Positions 335 through 58,759 of a stretch of 64,000 nt of DNA are shown here, one piece after another; position 1 is the first letter of the stretch; each line of letters begins with the position of its first letter. The stretch is from Hydrurus foetidus (Eukaryota). The translations under genes were made by a program, and so were the position numbers. The stretch is taken from assembly GCA_900617105.1 (NCBI GenBank), contig UYFQ01000788.1, forward strand, positions 1-64,000, given 5' to 3'. The notes beneath the pieces were generated by a model that had not been told where the DNA came from, did no database searches, and saw only the letters and a program-made list of their open reading frames with translations.

Positions 335-706
335 ATCATCCTCAAAGTTTGAGAGTACTTGGTTTAAAACCGAGTGAGATAATTGGCATTGAGGAGGTTG
401 CAAGGTCACCAGGTCTGCACATAAGTTGGGAAAGTGTTGTACACCCATTTTGAACGTGTACAGCATTATGAACGTTACTTGAAATATAGCCGTTGCTTTC
501 ACAAAAAGTGGCGTTTTGAAAATGTTCATTCTTTTCACTTCGTTCAGATATTTCATGCGGCCAGGAGATCCACAGGAGAGAGGATTTAACGCCAGTCATA
601 CTACTGTTTCAAAGTCATCTCTATATCCACATCGGCAATTTTGGTAATCCTGTCTGCATTGCGTTTCCTTGGAAATTAAAACCTCTTGAAAGTTGCAATC
701 CTCGAA

Positions 707-1495
707 ATGATCAACGCAATGAAGCTGCTCCTTGTCTGTTCACTATTACTTCGGATCTCAAGCTTCCAGTCATCCGAAGCCCCTTCTTGCAGGACTTCAA
801 GAGCAACTTACCCATCTAGTAATGCAGTCGACGAAGATCAAGCTGACGATCCTTTTGAGCCCCTCCAAATTCCTTGTGAGATTAACGGTTACATCATCCC
901 AGCAATAGTGGATACTGGAGCTCAAATATCAGTAATGTCTGAATCCTGTGCCCGGAGATGCAGAGTTTCAAATATGATTGACAGCAGATTTTGTGGTAAG
1001 GCTGTAGGCATGGGTACAAGCGATATTCTTGGAAGAATAAGTGAGTTACCGATGCGAGTCGGGCCAATTTCTTACCACAACAGAGTATCGATCCTGAGAG
1101 AATCACGCGTTGACTTGATTCTTGGCTTAGACTTTCTAAGACGCTTTAAAAGTGACATAAATCTTGAAGATGGGATACTCAAAATGAAAGTTCGTGGGAA
1201 GGTTATCCGAATTGCTTTCATGGACAATTACGAGAGACCGTTGAGAAATTTTGGCGAAAATACTGATCAATGCGAAGATAATGTGACCTTGGAGGATGAA
1301 GGTAGTTCCAGCGATGATGAATCAATGTTTGGACGGGATCAAGACGAGAGTCGTAGCATACGAGAGAAAATGCCAATGCGTGGAGGGTATTCTGATCGTT
1401 CAACTCCTCATAGCTCGCGTAATGATGCTAGTTACAATGAGGATAGTGATGAAGAGGTTCAAAGATACAAGGGCATATCTATGGAAGGGGTGTAG
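707..1495 (+). CDS. Ddi1-like retroviral-type aspartyl protease with N-terminal signal peptide and acidic tail
   Basis: Intronless ORF. IPCEINGYIIPAIVDTGAQISVMSESCARRC...IDSRFCGKAVGMGTSDILGRI...DLILGLDFLRRF matches the Ddi1 RVP domain. Hydrophobic N-terminus MKLLLVCSLLLRISS-F (alternative ATG at 719). Confidence 0.85.
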   Translation: MINAMKLLLVCSLLLRISSFQSSEAPSCRTSRATYPSSNAVDEDQADDPFEPLQIPCEINGYIIPAIVDTGAQISVMSESCARRCRVSNMIDSRFCGKAVGMGTSDILGRISELPMRVGPISYHNRVSILRESRVDLILGLDFLRRFKSDINLEDGILKMKVRGKVIRIAFMDNYERPLRNFGENTDQCEDNVTLEDEGSSSDDESMFGRDQDESRSIREKMPMRGGYSDRSTPHSSRNDASYNEDSDEEVQRYKGISMEGV

Positions 1496-25394: not shown

Positions 25395-26207
25395 ATTTGA
25401 TATTGTTAGGACTAACTATCCGGGAAACTCCGCTATTTCATAGATCAATGTAGGAGCGCACCTCCTCCGACAGTTTCTCACCAATTAGATGCTAGTTCAC
25501 GAGCTTGTGTACTGTACGTACTTTCCTCCAAGAATGTAGTTTCTGTCCATCTATTCGTAGTACATAATGCTTATTTTTACATACAAGTCAACATCCCATT
25601 TTCAAAAAAATCTCCTTCGGACAGAAAGGGATTCATTTCTTCGTCCAAATTTTGATCAATGTGGCCATGTGACGAAGCTCATGCAGGCACAACATTGTCA
25701 CAATGTCCTCGCACAAACAAAATCGAGAGTTTGATTTCGATTGGCAGCACTGAAATTTCCATCAGTTGACAACAACCGTTCCATAAAACTCCAAAAGGAT
25801 AAGTCTTTCTGGACGATACACAGGGATTGAGGAGTACAAATTAAATGTGTTAATGTACGCGGTCCACCCATCACTCAATGCCTCGGCTTTCAACTTCTTC
25901 GTACAAGGACTCCTTCATTTGCAAAAAGCGTTTAATTCTCATTTAAATCGAGATTGTTGGTTGACGAAAAATAACATAATTACTTAGTTTACAATTTACA
26001 ATTTCACATCATAATGGACCGGTGGACAGCACAGTACAAAGTATCTGTATTCTGTACGTATACGACATTGAAAAAATTCAGCAGACTCGACCAAAGTACA
26101 AAATACCGACCCTTGCTCTCAACTCTCAACTCTTCTACATTTCAGATTGCAGGAGTCAAAGTCGAAATCATCAACAGTTGGGAAGGATCCCGTCAAGTTT
26201 TGACAAC

Positions 26208-27013
26208 ATGGAGCCTATACCATCATGCACCCTTTACATAAATAATATCAATGAGAAAATCAAGCAGGATGTAGTCAAGAAAATGCTGTACATGGTGTTT
26301 TCTCAGTATGGCAAGGTAACCGACGTAATCGCTAAAAAAGGCTTGAAATTAAGAGGCCAAGCTTGGGTAGTCTTTGAGAATGAATCTTCAGCTGTTACCG
26401 CGCTTCGTGGAAAGCAAGGATTTAGCTTCTATGAAAAGCCGCTGGTGAGTTTATGACGCTCATTTCTACATGTTCACCCCCTAGATGATATGATTCAATC
26501 TCTAGCAGTTAATTGTTTTCTTCGTGATTACTTCGCACAGTATTCGCACTTCATCTCTGCTCTCTTGGCAGATGCTACATAAATTTTGAAAATAAATTTT
26601 TTGATATTCCTTTTCACAACTGTTCTGTCATGCGCTGTAAATGCTGTGACAATTTGAGTTCCTTCAGATACTCTGCAGTGACAGATGTCACAAAACACTT
26701 CTTGTGTATGTTCAGCATAAGCTCTAAAATAGAGAGCACTTCATGACATGTTTTGAGAACAATCCGTAGGAACGATTGAAACAGAAAACTCTTTACAAAA
26801 TAAATGACATTCCAAACTGTATTAATTTTTCTTTAGGCAATTCAATTCTCCAAAAACAAGACGGATTTGTCGAGAAAAAATGACGTGTTTGAAGTTACTT
26901 TAAAAAGAAAAAGAGATCCAGCCGCAGTAGATGATAAAGAAGAAGATGATGATGATGATGATAACGCAGAGGAAAATAACGATACTCCAGTTGTTTCCAT
27001 GCTAGAATCGTGA
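26208..27013 (+). CDS. U1A/U2B''-like spliceosomal RRM protein, single RRM (exons 26208-26444, 26837-27013)
   Basis: TLYINNINEKIK...LYMVFSQYGKV...KLRGQAWVVF...QGFSFYEKPLAIQFSK, followed by an acidic tail and stop. Confidence 0.85.
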
Positions 27014-39000: not shown

Positions 39001-40467
39001 TCATCTATCACTCGCGACATTGTATCTAGATATTGAACCATTCCTTGTCGCCCAGAAAACCTCTTTGTTTTTGTTAGCCCATTTGAAGTGTGTTATAAGT
39101 CGACGTTTAACGATGTCATGAGATACATCATGTTCTTCAACTACATTATCATCATAAGGCAGAATTAAATGCTCATCTCCACCCATCCCACTGTTGTCAT
39201 CAAGTGGTGTTTTGTTTTGTCTTGTGTATTCTGTCAATCTACGAAATACAGAAGCTTCTTCTTGAGATAAATCACTATCAAAGTCACGATCGCATATCTC
39301 TTCTAAGTTCCACATTTCGTTCATACCAGCTAATACCTTCCGCTGGTTATGAATCGCGCAGCACGTCAGAAATATATTATCCATGAGAGCCATATCGTTG
39401 AAACGGCTGCCGTACTTCAGGATTGCAAACTCCTGCTTCAGCTCACCAAAAAGCTTTTCAACATCCTTCCTTAAACTTTCTAACATCTCTGTCCAGTTGT
39501 AATCGTCCTGATCAACAGGTCTTTTAGTAGGCTCCATCATGGTGGACCACTTGTGGTATCCGTTGTCGCATAAGTTGTAAGCTCCTTTGACGCTCATCAT
39601 TACTCCATCATCATTGTATATATCGTAAGAATTGTCATCATACATACCATTTTTCATGGCCATCATAGCACCATCAAATTTTACTATGGACTTGTCTGAA
39701 ACACTTCCATAGAAGCCTTTAGTCGCAGAAACAATCATGCCTCTATGATTTACTGCAGCCTCGAAGACACGAGATGGAAATTTCTCTTTTCCAGTTGAAA
39801 CCTGTTTGAGATTAGCAGAGACTCCCCAAACACGAACATGAACACAATCCACAGAACAAATACAACCAGGAAAACCGGAGACCCTATACTCCGCGCCATT
39901 ATCAAGAACCTCTGCCAAAGTAGGCATCTTCACCACTGTAGGGAAAACTACAGCACTGTACCATGTTGTAAACCCATTGAAGAAACACCTGTGAACTTCA
40001 GGGCTTATGTATGTCTGTTCAAATAGATCATCCAACGTGACATTTCTGGTAAGAACACGTAAAGATCCAAGCACTAGAAGTTCTACGGGACTAGATGTCT
40101 TGCCTCTGCTATCAGTTTTATTCCGCCAGAAATAATGCTCTTTCTCCTGAATCTTGGCTACTATCTCGTGAACTGAATCGAACGAGTGAGAGAAGCGAAA
40201 TCGAAATAGCTTGCCGTCGCGATGAGTAGGATCCCTGAATGTGTGGTACTCATCAACCACATAATCAATCCACCAAATTGACGATTTCGGATTCCTCCTT
40301 CTGTATGATCTTCTTGTCGCGAAAGGCCTCTTAGCACTCGTAGAACTGACGAGACTCTCCAATTCCCTTTTTTTGTCGTCATACTGTTGTAAACTAGTCG
40401 AATAACGGAACATGTCTAGGCTTCCGCTGGGGAAGTCGATGTAGTCGATCATTTGAGGAAGCTCCAT
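39001..40467 (-). CDS. PIF/Harbinger (HARBI1/DDE_Tnp_4-like) transposase
   Basis: Uninterrupted 488-aa ORF with GFPGCICSVDCVH, GFYGSVSDKSI, YNLCDNGYHKW, ESLRKDVEKLFGELKQEFAIL and CCAIHN. Confidence 0.93.
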   Translation of the reverse strand: MELPQMIDYIDFPSGSLDMFRYSTSLQQYDDKKRELESLVSSTSAKRPFATRRSYRRRNPKSSIWWIDYVVDEYHTFRDPTHRDGKLFRFRFSHSFDSVHEIVAKIQEKEHYFWRNKTDSRGKTSSPVELLVLGSLRVLTRNVTLDDLFEQTYISPEVHRCFFNGFTTWYSAVVFPTVVKMPTLAEVLDNGAEYRVSGFPGCICSVDCVHVRVWGVSANLKQVSTGKEKFPSRVFEAAVNHRGMIVSATKGFYGSVSDKSIVKFDGAMMAMKNGMYDDNSYDIYNDDGVMMSVKGAYNLCDNGYHKWSTMMEPTKRPVDQDDYNWTEMLESLRKDVEKLFGELKQEFAILKYGSRFNDMALMDNIFLTCCAIHNQRKVLAGMNEMWNLEEICDRDFDSDLSQEEASVFRRLTEYTRQNKTPLDDNSGMGGDEHLILPYDDNVVEEHDVSHDIVKRRLITHFKWANKNKEVFWATRNGSISRYNVASDR

Positions 40468-40756
40468 GGTCACGTATGAGACACGAAATGTCAATTAGAG
40501 AGTCATTACGACATCGTTGTCTGTCCCATACAGCTCTCCAGAATGAGATTCCAAGTTCTCATTTTCAGAAATGGAGCGACTGAGGAAACTGAGAAAAAGG
40601 GTCGTATTTCTCAGTTTGGCCAGACCAAAAATCGATAAACTGAGAACTTGGAATGATTTCCCTCAGTTTCATGCCCGTAAGGGTCGGTTGGAAAATCTCA
40701 AAAGAAAAAACACCGCATTTTCATTTTCAGAAGCCCGCCCGTAAGGGACGGTCTTA

Positions 40757-52502: not shown

Positions 52503-55500
52503 TCATCTGTCAGCATCTCGAACAAGACTAGCCAGTATTTTTCTTTTTCCCTCGAATGGCCTTCTTGAGTGCATAACAGTCCTGTTATCGATCAAAATCA
52601 CATCCCCTTTCTGCCATTTGAAGGCTACGCATATCTCGTCCTACAGTAAACACGGAAAGTGGAAATATAAACGAAAATAGAATTATGAAAAAACTGCTAT
52701 TTTGTAGATGTATGTAATTCGGTATTCTGTCGATAATTGATTTTGTAGAACACATCAAACGCACATAAAACATATACATAAAGTATCTACATAAAATGCA
52801 GACATGAAATGTGTACACGAAATGTATCAACAAATAACAAATATCACTACTTTAAAGCACCATCTAAGTTAAGGCAGAACATGCAACAAAAGCAGAACAG
52901 AGGAGAGAGCTCACCATAATCTTGACAGCGTCTTGAATAACGATGGGATCGATGAGCTGACCGTTGCCCAGCAGCACGGCTTGACTCCCAACATTCAAAT
53001 TGTCATTCCAACCTATGCGAGATGAGAGCGATATATTGTAGATGTTGTTATTAAGTGTTAGATGAGCTGTATTACATTGATACTTTCTATGTCAAGTTGA
53101 GTACCGATAAGGTATAATGACAATAAAGTGTAAAACAATGAAGGCAAGATTCACAATGTTGATGATAAGGTTTGTAACATGACATCACATAATTAGAAAC
53201 AGTAATAACGCTATTCAAAACAAGAAGAAGAATTGAGAAAAAATGGCAAAAAACGAGAATAATAACATTTACCTGTAAAAGCTGCCACAACAGAGTTGAA
53301 AAAGTTTTTAGTATTAGATCTTTTCTCTCCTCCATCAAACCGAATCGCTGGTAGCACTTTCGTGACCGTTTTTAGTACTCCATTCGGTAGCCATTCAAAA
53401 GTGGATTGAGAAGCCCTGAGAGCTGTCTCGACTTCAGCTGATAAGAGAGAGAGAATTGTGATTTTGTTACTTTTTTTCAATTTGATGTAGTTCCATTCCT
53501 ATGACAGAATTGCGACACAATACAATACAATACAACATAACATAACAAATTAGGAGTCCAAACCCACGTTCTTTATTAATTGAATTTCTGATCATCTCAT
53601 CTAAAATATAGACGTGTAAGTACATACCTTGTGTGGTTGCCGAGTACGTGCTGGCCCACCCCCTTCCTATGGCGGAAGAGGGATCATCTTCTCGGGACAT
53701 GAAACGCACGTACTGCACCTGAGATACAAACATGTTACTCCGTGTTAATTGTTATATTCTGACCTATTTTACCTGTATATTGACCAAAAACATTTTTTTA
53801 TTGAAAATATATGCATAGACTTGATTTGAGCACTAGTATGTGTATTTACTTTCGATTATTGTTATATTCTTATATTGTTGCCGTCATTCATTGTTATCAG
53901 TTTCATTATCAAAAAGTTGCAGTCAGGCCAGTAATGTACTTCACTCTTCATTTCTGTTTTTCCTCTCCTTTGACCTAATAATGGTTCCGTCAAATCGGAG
54001 AGACATCATTTCAACACAACTCCCAAAACAACATGATAAAAGATAAGATAAATTTGATCACAAATTCAAAAATGTAGGCACGCAAAAAGGAAAATATGAT
54101 GTACAGAAATTTCTTTTGATGATCTTCTTGTTTAATTCCAAAAAGAATTCACACAATATTTCAGAAAATATTGGAAAAAGAAAAAAAGAAATTGATAAAA
54201 ATTGATGTGTGAATCATAGAAGCTTGAAATTCTTTTACTTGCAAAAAATTTCAAATGAACAAGTCAGTCTCCTCGTACTCTAGCTCTTACTCCGTGTGTT
54301 TGCAAGTCTTCCATGAAAGTTGGATGGAGAGATTCCAGTCTGCGACACACTTCGGAAGATTCTAAGATAGGAGTCTATCATAGGATGCAATAGAACGGAA
54401 GGGAATGAAGAGGAATGAAATGGAATGAAATAAAAGGAAATAGTGGAGTTAAGAGGCAAGTGGAAGTAAAGTTGGGAAGTGAGTAAGGAAGTAAAAGATA
54501 AGTTTGTGACAGAAAATAAAGTCGGGAAGGTGATTTAAATTGCTGTGGTTGAGGGAATATATTGGAGTGTGTGTTAACCACTTATTGACATGTCTATCAC
54601 AAGACAGATCATTTCATGAAAATCTGTACACACTTGAGATGGCATTATATGACACGATATAAAATGACATGACACAAGATAATGTGATGCAACATGTCAC
54701 GACACATCATGAAATAACTTGAAATAACACAACATCACTTTACACAAGATAAGACAAGATAACACAATCGAGCTTACCTCTCCCCCGTCTCCAGGAGGTA
54801 CTTCGCAGTAGAAGAAGAGGTGGGTGGGCGGTTCGGGCACCTACAGCAATAGAAAGAGAAAAGAAAAAAAGAAGTGTGACATATTTCAAATCTGTGCTAT
54901 TGAAGTGAATTCTTAGACTCCCATTAGAATGCTAATTGCGTTTCGAATATCCAATGACGCACTCCAGGTCTGTGGCTAAGAAGTGAGTTCTAAATTCTCT
55001 ATCCCTACTGACTACTGCAGACTCTCGTTATCGTATTATAATGTGTCGAAACTATCATAAGCTTGTAGCCTCTCTGGAAGCAACGTATCAAAAGGGACAA
55101 AACTGACGACATTATGTCTGCCAGAATTAAAAATAGTCTACTATACCGGCGGTGATTGTGTTCTTATGGCGCATTGCATTGCATGATATTGTATTCAAAG
55201 CTATTGTACCTGAGACATTTCATGATGGAAGGGAATCTTCTCGGAAGAAGGCGATTCGTTCGCTGTGAAAACGTTCTCTGTTATTTGAGTCCTAACAGCG
55301 GCACCACCTTCGTAGATCAAAATGTTGATTATCCGAGAGAAAGACTCGTTGCTGTCATCAGTGGGAACACAGTGTTTGTGAGATATTAGATACCTATGTA
55401 TTTCATTCCTTTGAGCTTCGTAGATTTGATAACGGTATCGAAGTCGAAAGCGGAGTCGATAGGAAAATCCCTAAATAGTATTGCGCCGTGCTTCAGCAGA

Positions 55501-55721
55501 AGATCATCGATTTCGGATCTGTTAGCCTCAATCCACTTCGTGAACAGATCTAGCTTCTGGACGGAGACTGTATTGCTCGGTCGCACTAGAAGAGGAAATG
55601 CCTTCCCTGAAAAAGATTTCCCTTCAGAAGGATGCGAAAAAGTTACAAACGGACTTCCTATAACGGTCTCTTCCATCTCGCATATAGTCGCAGTTGGTCC
55701 GTCCAGAAAAGTGGTAGACAT
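52503..55721 (-). CDS. Clavaminate-synthase-like / TauD-family Fe(II)-2OG dioxygenase (multi-exon)
   Basis: KHGAILFRDFP, GGAAVRTQITENVFTANESP...IPFHHEMSQ, HLFFYCEVPP..GGETP, FFNSVVAA, QKGDVILIDNRTVMHSRRPFEGKRKILASL. Confidence 0.92.
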
Positions 55722-56267
55722 GAGATGAAGAGTACAGAAGGCGTTAAGTCGGCGCACTTCTATCACAGAGAGGATGAGTCCGTGTTGAAAAAGCAGCGTC
55801 TAATATAGCCGGTAGCAGAGGAAGGACGACACAAGAATCGACGATGGAGAGTGTTGGTCAAGAGAATCGAAATCAGTGAAACTCGGAAGCAACGTTACTA
55901 AAGAATAAAAGCCAGCAAAGATAAGTAATGATTCCACAGGACGGCACGCGTTTAAAGGAGACTTTTTAAGACGACAGCAATGTTCCGCAACGCTACAGCC
56001 TCAGAAATAAAGTGCTGTGCTGAGAGGAATGAGGGTCGAAGAACAGTAGGAAGTGGTAATGTTCAGATTTCAGATTACCGAGAGGAGTATTTTGGTGACA
56101 GCAATTAATGGCGTACTATAATTTTGGTCTGCCCAAAACATCGAATATGACGGCAGCCGGCATCATCTATCAAAACAGAGACTTGGCAATACGTTTCAAA
56201 ATTGACAACGAACGTCCCAACTGACGAGTGAAACCAGCACGGAGAAGTAATTTTTTTGAGCTCTAGC

Positions 56268-58759
56268 ATGGTGCAAATTTTTATTGAGGGATGCGATCGA
56301 CTAGTCACACTAAGAATCCCGGAGTCTGATGGAAACGAGAATTACAGTCATCGCGATCTGACGGAGGCTATTGCGTCATCATTTGGCATATCTGCAACTA
56401 GCTTTTATGTGACAACGAAAGGAGGGAAACCGCTTACATCCACCGCGGATGTAGCCTTAATAGATAATAGCACACTGTCCTTGAAGTTTAGACTTTGCGG
56501 AGGTATAGATTTCCAGCATAGAGAGGGCTCTAAAATTGGAGGCGGAGGTAGGATCAGCTTCTTCACAAAAGAATTGTCTGCAATCTGATTCAGAGTCTGC
56601 GGACCATCTGTGCAGTAGAGCCCAAACATATGATAGCTCCTGAAGGAGGAATGAGAAATGAAGCAACAGACTTGACATGTTCACTAATCAATCCCAACGA
56701 CTACTTGATCACCACTTAGGTCAGCTGTCAGACTCCCAGGCGTCAGTAGAGCGCAGGGAGAGGCTTCGGAAACTCGCGTTGGAGACGATAGATATTAGTA
56801 AAGATCCATATTTTATGCGAAACCACTTGGGAAGTTACGAATGCAAATTGTGTCTGACTCTACACAATAATGAAGGTGATAACTGAAAGCTTTTCCATGT
56901 TCCTGAGACTAGCTCACTATTTGAAGCATATCTTGAATTATGGAGAGGCAACACAGACGAAGTGAGCGTGTAAAATGTAATGCTCAACAAACGAAAATCA
57001 CGAAATTGTACCTTGAGTAGTTAGTTAATGTAATGATTCCCAGTGCAATTTAGTGACTTTCAGAGCACGAGGAATCCTCGGCATACTCATCGATTCTGAT
57101 TATCTATTTTGTGATTACCAGTGATGCAGAATTGTCAGTGGTTTTACGTAGCTGTTGAGCAGTGCGGTTACTCGAGATACATCAAGTCTGTACTGAGCTT
57201 TGAGCTCAATCAGTACCTCTCCATCATGCTCATTATTTGGGACCGCATAATTGATAACTGCACTTCACATCACTTTGCATTACATGACAGGCAATTACTT
57301 GGCGCACACACAGGCCAAAAGACATCAATCGAATCTGGTTAGTCCCTTATTTACTCCTCTAACCTCTCGTCACATCATCGGTCATTTGCCTACCCTCCCT
57401 TTTCATTTGGGTTATGCTCCGTTTTATTGGCCATCGTCTTATTCACTCTCTTTATCTTTTATTAAACTTTAAGTCATAATGTATTTTTTATTCTAAAAAC
57501 ATACAACCCTCTGACTCTTCACAAATCAAACCTAACATGATTTTAACTTTTGCTCCAACAATAACATAATTTCAACCTCCATTCCATCCCTATAGGGACG
57601 CAGAGCGGCAATGGAGGCAAAGAACGCAGCACCCAGAGCAATGGTAACGAAGGAAGTGGCAGTAAGGAGGGTCATAAAAATCGGTAGACCCGGCTACAAG
57701 GTGAGAGTAGTGAGGGGGGAGGAGACGGGTAGGGGAAATGGTCGTTAGAAAAAAACAGAGAGTGGAAAAGTGTCGCGGTAGGCGAATGAAGAGAAGAAGA
57801 ATAGATATATAGATGTTTGGCGTACAGACAGTGAGAAAGACATAGAAAGGAAGAAAAGACGAGACACTCTTTCCCCCTCTCACTCCTCTCTCCCCACTTA
57901 TCCCCTTCTCGTCCCCCCCACCCCCTCCTCTTCTCCCTTACTCACCCTCTCATCCCCCCAACCCCCTTAGCATTCTTACCCCCACCTCTCCTTCCAATCA
58001 CTGTACCCCTACCTTCCTATCCCCACTTCTCATCACCTTGTCCCCCTTCTCTCCCCCCTCCCCTCCTACTCCCTTTCTTCCTCCCTTCCCCAGGTCACGA
58101 AGTCCCGAGCAGCCGTTACTCTTCAGCGCTCTCTGACCTTCGAGGTGGACTACCCGGATGCAGAGGGGGACCTACAGCCGAGACACAGGTAAGTCAATCA
58201 GCCAATATAATAGATAGAAGACAGAGGGAAGAGGGAAGTGTTTGTCATTTGTATTGCTGTCTGGAATCACTTAAGGTTGAAATGCATCTCTGTTGCGCTT
58301 CTCTGTGATGGAGGATCGTGCCTCTATCACAAGTCTCGGCGTTTTTAATCTGGTACCAGCACACCACACAACAAGAACACCACACCACACAACACAGCAC
58401 AACACAACAAGAACACAGCACAACACAACACGCAGCGTTTTCATCGAACTAACCGTCGAAATGTTATCACTTCTTAATATAAATCGGAACCTAGTGTTGG
58501 CATTTTTCGTCCTTCTCAATGATTAATTTTCTGTATTTTAATTTTCAGATTTATGAGTGCGTACGAACAAAAAGTTGAAACACCGGATAAGAACTTTCAA
58601 TTCCTGCTTTTCGCTTGTGATCCGTATGAGACGATAGCATTCAAAATACCAAATCAACCAGTGGATAAAAGAGAAGGAAAATTCTACACAAATTGGGATG
58701 CAAAAAATAAGAAATTTGTTTTGACTTTGTTTTTCTTGGACGCCGTTCCGGGAAGATAA
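56268..58759 (+). CDS. SF3A2: Splicing factor 3a subunit 2 (SF3a66/Prp11) fused to an N-terminal ubiquitin-like domain (exons 56268-56547, 56720-56875, 57291-57337, 57596-57700, 58094-58188, 58549-58759)
   Basis: DFQHREGSKIGGGG...RRERLRKLALETIDISKDPYFMRNHLGSYECKLCLTLHNNEGNYLAHTQAKRHQSNL...KIGRPGYKVTK...PRHRFMSAYEQKVE...PYETIAFKIP. The preceding 79 aa end in FRLCGG. Confidence 0.95.

What the first reader, a model, noticed from the sequence alone, without database searches (positions are those of the whole stretch)
56268..56547. SF3A2 encoded as a ubiquitin-fold precursor (UBL-RLCGG|IDFQHR): candidate second Sde2-type 'ubiquitin-fold-activated' splicing factor
Seen: the conserved SF3A2 N-terminus, normally MDFQHR, reads IDFQHR with no Met. 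It is fused in frame, within one exon, to a 79-aa domain that starts MVQIFI and ends LSLKFRLCGG (GG codons 56499-56504). Established: ubiquitin starts MQIF and ends LRLRGG, and the splicing regulator Sde2 has an N-terminal ubiquitin fold cleaved after GG by deubiquitinases to release the active, N-degron-bearing protein. Inference: this core U2 snRNP subunit is made as a pro-protein, cleaved at GG|I, exposing Ile (an N-end-rule destabilising residue), which would couple spliceosome assembly to DUB activity. I do not know this architecture for SF3A2.
Basis: partly seen in the sequence, partly recalled or inferred. Interest (0 to 1): 0.88.

Follow-up and report, generated by a model that had tools for sequence, protein, structure and literature searches.

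The report
Ubiquitin-capped precursor of splicing factor SF3A2
In this organism (likely a golden alga), and in brown algae and water moulds, the core splicing protein SF3A2 is encoded with a ubiquitin-like cap fused in front of its first residue, and the cap is likely cut off at a Gly-Gly site so that the protein's front end would be free to enter the splicing machine's active site.

Summary
Confirmed. The window holds a six-exon, 297-aa SF3A2 gene whose first 79 residues form a ubiquitin fold ending RLCGG, joined in frame to IDFQHR. RNA reads cover the junction unspliced (depth 26-51); the next Met is residue 126. The cap descends from ubiquitin, not from Sde2: the family profile aligns end to end with ubiquitin, and no Sde2 Pfam family is hit. 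The fusion occurs in chrysophytes, brown algae, xanthophytes, a raphidophyte, a pelagophyte and oomycetes. The cap is poorly conserved (median 27% identity against 70% for the core), yet 130 of 135 extended N-termini end in GG. A cut at GG|I restores the exact Prp11 register (aromatic 3, Lys10), which in published Bact structures sits in the active site. Cleavage is inferred, not shown. The N-degron idea is weak: Met follows GG in 20 of 130, and the cap appears lost several times. Best reading: a constitutive FUBI-eS30-like precursor that works like Sde2. I found no paper on it in six searches. This scan noted the same fusion before in an oomycete and a diatom.

The parts
56216..56267 (+). 5' untranslated region (approximate transcript start)
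   Evidence: Five read ends at 56216 in X23; depth rises from about 56200
56268..56504 (+). Ubiquitin-like cap, 79 aa, 30% identical to ubiquitin
   Evidence: Profile A1 positions 2-76 hit single ubiquitins at E 2e-5 to 7e-4; AF2 pLDDT 76; Foldseek top hit ubiquitin E 2.9e-5; VIA Z 9-10 to UBL domains; identity
56481..56504 (+). Last strand and tail LKFRLCGG, in register with ubiquitin L69-V70-L71-R72-L73-R74-G75-G76
   Evidence: Alignment and position counts; L69 and R72 equivalents are required for SDE2 cleavage (PMC13572447 passages)
56499..56504 (+). Gly-Gly, predicted DUB cleavage site (cut after 56504)
   Evidence: Invariant in 12 of 12 rows of A1; 130 of 135 extended N-termini; 23 of 24 SF3A2 DNA loci
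56505..56547 (+). Predicted mature SF3A2 N-terminus: Ile1 (in place of Met1), Phe3 (56511-56513), Lys10 (56532-56534)
   Evidence: Aligns with human SF3A2 residue 1; Prp11 Tyr3 and Lys10 lie in the Bact active site (PMC12773743 passages)
56548..56719 (+). Intron 1 (GT..AG)
   Evidence: 17 + 11 spliced reads
56720..56875 (+). Exon 2 (RERLR helix, start of the zinc finger)
57291..57337 (+). Exon 3 (end of the zinc finger)
57596..57700 (+). Exon 4
58094..58188 (+). Exon 5 (start of the PF16835 beta-sandwich)
58549..58759 (+). Exon 6 coding part to the stop codon (PF16835, E 9e-24)

Best explanation
SF3A2 here is encoded as a fusion of a diverged, ubiquitin-derived cap and the mature subunit, and a deubiquitinase likely cuts it after Gly78-Gly79, constitutively and soon after translation, which would release Ile-Asp-Phe-Gln... 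in the normal Prp11 register. Shown: the fusion, its expression, the fold, the ubiquitin homology and the conserved GG. Inferred: (a) the cut; (b) that removal is needed because the first ten residues insert into the Bact active site; (c) that a ubiquitin gene fused to SF3A2 once, early in stramenopiles, after which Met1 was free to become Ile, so the gene depends on the cap until a new start codon arises; (d) that the cap serves at most as an expression or folding aid, as proposed for ubiquitin on ribosomal proteins.
For: RNA is continuous over the junction and there is no other start. The profile matches ubiquitin 1-76 with GG on G75-G76, and also FUBI-S30 at E 1e-4. The fold is beta-grasp. 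Median identity to the query is 27% for the cap and 70% for the core over 76 full-length fusions, yet 130 of 135 extended N-termini end in GG; 3 of the 5 others have Met at SF3A2 position 1 and an upstream stretch that does not look ubiquitin-like. R72 is kept in 77 of 130, and the L73 position is L, V, I or M in 125 of 130. A DNA scan that asked only for the Ile-start motif gave 26 loci: 2 chance hits and 24 SF3A2, 23 of them with GG in frame (several are near-duplicates). Lys at +10 is present in 125 of 130, and one residue later in the other 5. Published structures put Tyr3 on the 5' splice site and Lys10 in the K1 site, and the SF3a66 N-terminus reaches into the active site. An uncleaved ubiquitin fusion, Giardia Ub-eS31, has lost G75 (PMC11354881 passage). 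All capped rows fall in one 48-row group of an 82-row FastTree (SH-like 91).
Against: There are no protein-level data, so cleavage is not shown. Two sequences break the GG (AG|I in P0030, GC|I in P0133). Uncapped forms carry 1-3 extra residues (M, MS, MSG, MPP, MAP before Ile), so the N-terminus need not be exact and the steric argument holds only for a large domain. I could not model the cap in a spliceosome. The protein samples are redundant and came largely from searches seeded with fusions. The single origin rests on one gene tree with support below 95 and unnamed deep rows. One Met-Ile form (P0370) falls outside the capped group, so Met-Ile is not always a scar of cap loss.
Confidence: 0.78

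Rival explanations
1. Regulated switch: a specific DUB gates the supply of mature SF3A2, and the exposed Ile makes it short-lived, as for K-Sde2-C.
For: The cap has drifted far from ubiquitin (30% in the query), which could restrict it to few DUBs, as for FUBI (PMC10611586 abstract) and SDE2. Ile follows GG in 106 of 130.
Against: Met follows GG in 20 of 130, including the named oomycetes and xanthophytes, and Val in 2; these are stabilising residues (recalled). Nine uncapped forms are rejected as one clade (AU p 2e-8), and locus L022 has in-frame stops directly before its new ATG, so the cap can be lost.
Confidence: 0.12
2. The cap stays on as an integral ubiquitin-like domain (as the C-terminal UBL of SF3A1 does; recalled) and binds partners or RNA.
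For: No direct evidence of cleavage. AG|I and GC|I variants exist. The R74 position is variable (R in 37 of 130; C in the query).
Against: Of the cap's positions in alignment A1 only G52 and the GG are invariant. Cap length runs from about 63 to 340 aa. GG sits directly before residue 1 of SF3A2, whose N-terminus enters the active site.
Confidence: 0.08
3. Artefact: the cap is intron or UTR, or an assembly join, and the real gene starts elsewhere.
For: An AG|GT string lies at the junction. The canonical-ubiquitin relatives (P0065, P0079, P0098) could be assembly joins.
Against: No splice joint at 56503; depth 26-51 across it. DNA contigs of runs X3, X5 and X7 span the junction. The same layout occurs in named genomes such as Ectocarpus, Tribonema and Saprolegnia.
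Confidence: 0.01

Closest known systems
FUBI-eS30 (FAU)
   Same: A diverged ubiquitin-like leader ending in GG on a core subunit of a large RNP; matured by USP36/USP16 (PMC10611586 abstract). The family profile hits an S30 precursor at E 1e-4.
   Different: The cargo is a spliceosome subunit. The leader varies far more between lineages (16-97% identity to ubiquitin) and appears to have been lost several times. Cleavage is untested.
Ubiquitin-eL40 and ubiquitin-eS31 fusions; algal ubiquitin fusions (actin, P1, NiSOD)
   Same: Ubiquitin-derived leader, GG directly before the mature first residue. Some relatives carry near-canonical ubiquitin.
   Different: Here the leader is mostly degenerate and lacks the sequence around ubiquitin Ile44 (alignment), so it is unlikely to feed the ubiquitin pool. 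SF3A2 is not named in the main text of the algal fusion survey ('sf3' 0, 'splic' 0) or of a 2024 review ('sf3' 0).
Sde2/SDE2
   Same: A splicing protein made with an N-terminal UBL that is cut at GG by DUBs; same L69 and R72 tail residues.
   Different: Sde2 is an intron-specific regulator with a GG|K junction whose Lys is essential and an N-degron. Here the cargo is a core U2 snRNP subunit, the junction is GG|I or GG|M, no Sde2 family is hit, and most eukaryotes sampled make SF3A2 with no cap.
SF3A2/Prp11/SF3a66
   Same: Zinc finger, PF16835 beta-sandwich, aromatic 3 and Lys10.
   Different: N-terminal cap; Ile in place of Met1; ends after the beta-sandwich (218 aa mature against 464 aa in the human chain).

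Membership tests
SF3A2/Prp11 | PF16835 beta-sandwich domain | tested here: met
   E 9.2e-24, 83.9 bits, cut-off 27
SF3A2/Prp11 | Matrin-type zinc finger and conserved N-terminal xDFQHR..GxK | tested here: met
   Spliced protein; family profile against human SF3A2, E 6.5e-100
Cleavable ubiquitin/UBL fusion precursors (Ub-eL40, Ub-eS31, FUBI-eS30) | N-terminal beta-grasp domain homologous to ubiquitin | tested here: met
Cleavable ubiquitin/UBL fusion precursors (Ub-eL40, Ub-eS31, FUBI-eS30) | Conserved GG directly before the mature first residue | tested here: met
   130 of 135 extended N-termini; 23 of 24 SF3A2 loci
Cleavable ubiquitin/UBL fusion precursors (Ub-eL40, Ub-eS31, FUBI-eS30) | One unspliced reading frame across the junction in mRNA | tested here: met
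Cleavable ubiquitin/UBL fusion precursors (Ub-eL40, Ub-eS31, FUBI-eS30) | Cleavage by a DUB in the cell | not testable with these tools
   Needs proteomics or an in vitro assay
Sde2/SDE2 | GG|K junction with an essential N-terminal lysine | tested here: not met
   Residue after GG is I, M, L or V in 130 of 130; the Sde2 requirement is from passages
Sde2/SDE2 | Leader matches an Sde2 N-terminal UBL Pfam family | tested here: inconclusive
   No Sde2 family listed for 12 or for 25 members, while PF00240 is; HMMER filters drop weak matches and no Sde2 sequence was compared directly
Sde2/SDE2 | SDE2 C-terminal domain as cargo | tested here: not met
   The cargo is SF3A2
N-degron-bearing precursors | Conserved destabilising residue after the cut | tested here: inconclusive
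   I or L in 108 of 130, but M or V in 22; turnover not measured

The most novel reading that the evidence does not exclude
A whole eukaryotic supergroup gates its core spliceosome through a deubiquitinase. SF3A2 is held as a capped precursor that can join U2 snRNP but cannot place Phe3 and Lys10 in the active site until a dedicated DUB removes the cap, which gives a ubiquitin-system checkpoint on the B-to-Bact step and a free, unacetylated Ile amine at the 5' splice site.
Probability: 0.15. Interest if true: 0.85.

Novelty: new variant of a known kind. Interest (0 to 1): 0.62.

Why it matters
If cleavage holds, ubiquitin-leader maturation, known for ribosomal proteins and for the accessory factor Sde2, extends to an essential core spliceosome subunit whose N-terminus touches the catalytic centre. 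It would make a DUB necessary for general splicing in brown algae, golden algae, oomycetes and probably diatoms, which is directly testable in laboratory stramenopiles. The series from canonical ubiquitin through degenerate and expanded caps to uncapped Met-Ile forms is a natural case for studying how such fusions arise, become obligatory and are lost, and may serve as a phylogenetic marker. N-terminal tags on SF3A2 in these organisms would be clipped off.

Tried and rejected
No whole genome was held, so copy number, an uncapped paralogue, Sde2 and the DUB set could not be checked. Single-sequence Pfam and PDB searches of the cap gave nothing significant; only the profile and the fold did. The third protein search, with canonical-ubiquitin fusion P0098, returned polyubiquitins in all 120 listed rows and said nothing on distribution. 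The ESM Atlas gave no answer. A full-length model of relative P0010 was poor (pLDDT 51; only the cap and parts of the C-terminal sandwich were confident) and was not used. Cluster look-ups named few taxa, so the deep-branching capped rows P0098, P0118, P0316, P0337 and P0379 stay unidentified, and 'diatom-like' for the xDRQNRVGSKFG group is my recall. The careful tree did not finish (one search is the quick tree), and my first exon coordinates were off by one (corrected). A splice donor at 56503 was rejected. Derivation of GG|I from the Ub-eL40 junction was considered and set aside, because oomycetes and xanthophytes keep GG|M. No complex prediction was run. DNA runs with small shares were not used for habitat claims.

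Full report
Observation. The frame from ATG 56268 gives 79 residues ending RLCGG, then IDFQHREGSKIGGG. Two oligo-dT RNA runs of one sample, under the same species label as the best DNA holder, define five GT..AG introns: 56548-56719, 56876-57290, 57338-57595, 57701-58093 and 58189-58548. At finer scale, coverage runs unbroken from about 56200 to 56547, with mean depth 51 and 26 over the GG|I junction, and intron 1 is the only joint. The joined exons give 297 aa with the second Met at 126. The cap and the mature N-terminus are therefore made as one chain. The closest named relative is a Hydrurales CCMP1899 protein (83% identity over the core), so the organism is probably a chrysophyte.

What the cap is. 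On its own it gives no significant Pfam or PDB hit. A profile of the query and 11 relatives aligns its positions 2-76 with ubiquitin 1-76, GG on GG (single ubiquitins E 2e-5 to 7e-4; S30 precursor E 1e-4), and puts Ile80 on human SF3A2 Met1. The AlphaFold2 model (pLDDT 76) has ubiquitin's order of strands and helix. Foldseek ranks ubiquitin, SUMO and ISG15 first (best E 2.9e-5), and VIA-align gives Z 9-10 at about 2 A rmsd over about 70 residues to beta-grasp domains. Of 25 diverse fusions, 16 hit PF00240 at E<=0.1 and no Sde2 family is listed. Identity to ubiquitin runs from 16% to 97% and is 30% in the query. The near-canonical cases (P0065, P0079, P0098) may be real or assembly joins; caps at 45-50% identity support descent from ubiquitin either way.

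How far it is spread. Named capped proteins come from Mallomonas, Ochromonadaceae, Hydrurales, Ectocarpus, Choristocarpus, Discosporangium, Hapterophycus, Tribonema, Heterococcus, Chrysoparadoxa, Phaeothamnion, Fibrocapsa, Chrysophaeum, Pythium, Saprolegnia and Thraustotheca. A search of 50% representatives with an uncapped profile listed 150 rows. I examined 87 that I picked by hand as covering the N-terminus: 37 began at Met1, 32 had GG directly upstream, and 18 were other, two of which read GG-M-x-DRQ. This fits one early origin but does not prove it, and several deep capped rows are unnamed.

The selection pattern. Among 190 distinct SF3A2 N-termini held, 135 have 40 or more residues upstream and 130 of these end in GG. 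The five others are AG|I, GC|I and three with Met at position 1. Over 76 full-length fusions, median identity to the query is 27% in the cap and 70% in the core. These samples are redundant and biased towards fusions. A less biased test was a metagenome scan for the Ile-start motif alone: 26 loci, 2 chance hits, 24 SF3A2, 23 with GG in frame (several near-duplicates). Four of the 23 showed only the last strand in frame; in the two that I checked the rest of the cap lies in an upstream exon. The tail keeps ubiquitin's L69, R72 and L73 positions in the query; L70A and R73A, the equivalents of the first two, block SDE2 cleavage (PMC13572447, passages). A ubiquitin fusion that is not cut, Giardia Ub-eS31, has G75A (PMC11354881, passages).

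Mechanism. After a cut at GG|I the chain starts I1-D2-F3...K10, with Lys at +10 in 125 of 130. In yeast Bact, Prp11 Tyr3 stacks on the 5' splice site and Lys10 fills the K1 metal site (PMC12773743, passages); in human Bact the SF3a66 N-terminus reaches into the active site (PMC5835773, passages). A folded domain directly before residue 1 would probably be in the way; that step is inference, not modelled. I therefore favour constitutive DUB processing (0.78), as for FUBI-eS30 (PMC10611586, abstract only) and Sde2 (PMC9508853, passages).

Against the regulatory reading. The residue after GG is I 106, M 20, L 2, V 2. Twelve proteins start with M, MS, MSG, MPP or MAP before Ile or Val. Nine such forms are rejected as one clade (AU p 2e-8, LG+G4 quick tree, group chosen after earlier trees had been seen). 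Locus L022 has in-frame stops directly before its ATG, so at least that loss is real at DNA level. Others could be gene-calling errors or extra retrocopies. The cap therefore looks dispensable once a new start exists, and 1-3 extra residues are tolerated.

Novelty. Six searches for a prior report (listings seen) showed none. The algal ubiquitin-fusion survey (PMC6332867, passages) has no 'sf3' or 'splic' in its main text; its supplements were not read and could list the fusion. Subscription journals are not covered. Public annotations name these proteins SF3A2, matrin-type or hypothetical, although precomputed Pfam already shows PF00240 on many. The scan's own notes hold the same fusion for an oomycete and a diatom; I saw them after my own survey and they are not independent support.

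Verdict. A real, expressed, lineage-wide ubiquitin-cap precursor of a core spliceosome subunit: a new variant of a known kind. It likely works like Sde2 and FUBI-eS30 but is not an Sde2 relative. Interest 0.62.

Noticed in passing
P0131: A 449-aa member of the P0098 cluster has a stretch that looks like a Hint/intein C-terminal tail (my recall), then two near-canonical ubiquitins, then SF3A2. It is either a polyubiquitin-SF3A2 fusion or an assembly join.
   Followed up: no
P0064: A capped SF3A2 filed under Syssomonas multiformis, a holozoan by my recall, nests among chrysophytes next to Ochromonadaceae (support 99); probably a contaminant.
   Followed up: partly
P0287, P0292-P0295, P0297-P0299, P0302, P0304: Caps expanded to about 130-340 aa by low-complexity inserts, with Arg in place of Phe at mature position 3 (or 4 in the GG-M-x-DRQ forms), the residue that stacks on the 5' splice site in yeast.
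   Followed up: partly
P0030; P0133: AG|I and GC|I junctions: natural candidates for an uncut cap, or sequence errors (P0133 clusters with GG-bearing proteins).
   Followed up: no
window 54800-56070, minus strand: An expressed TauD-like gene (PF02668, E 5e-4, below cut-off) lies head to head with SF3A2, with transcribed regions only about 150-250 bases apart: a possible bidirectional promoter.
   Followed up: no
window 39001-40494, minus strand: A 497-codon intronless frame that looks like a PIF/Harbinger-type transposase by eye; not searched.
   Followed up: no
window 680-1495 (+) and 25980-26456 (+): By eye, a DDI1-like aspartic protease domain and a U1A/U2B''-like RRM; not searched.
   Followed up: no
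L002, L016: In these loci a phase-1 intron splits the cap just before its last strand, which makes gene callers truncate it (P0087, P0089).
   Followed up: yes
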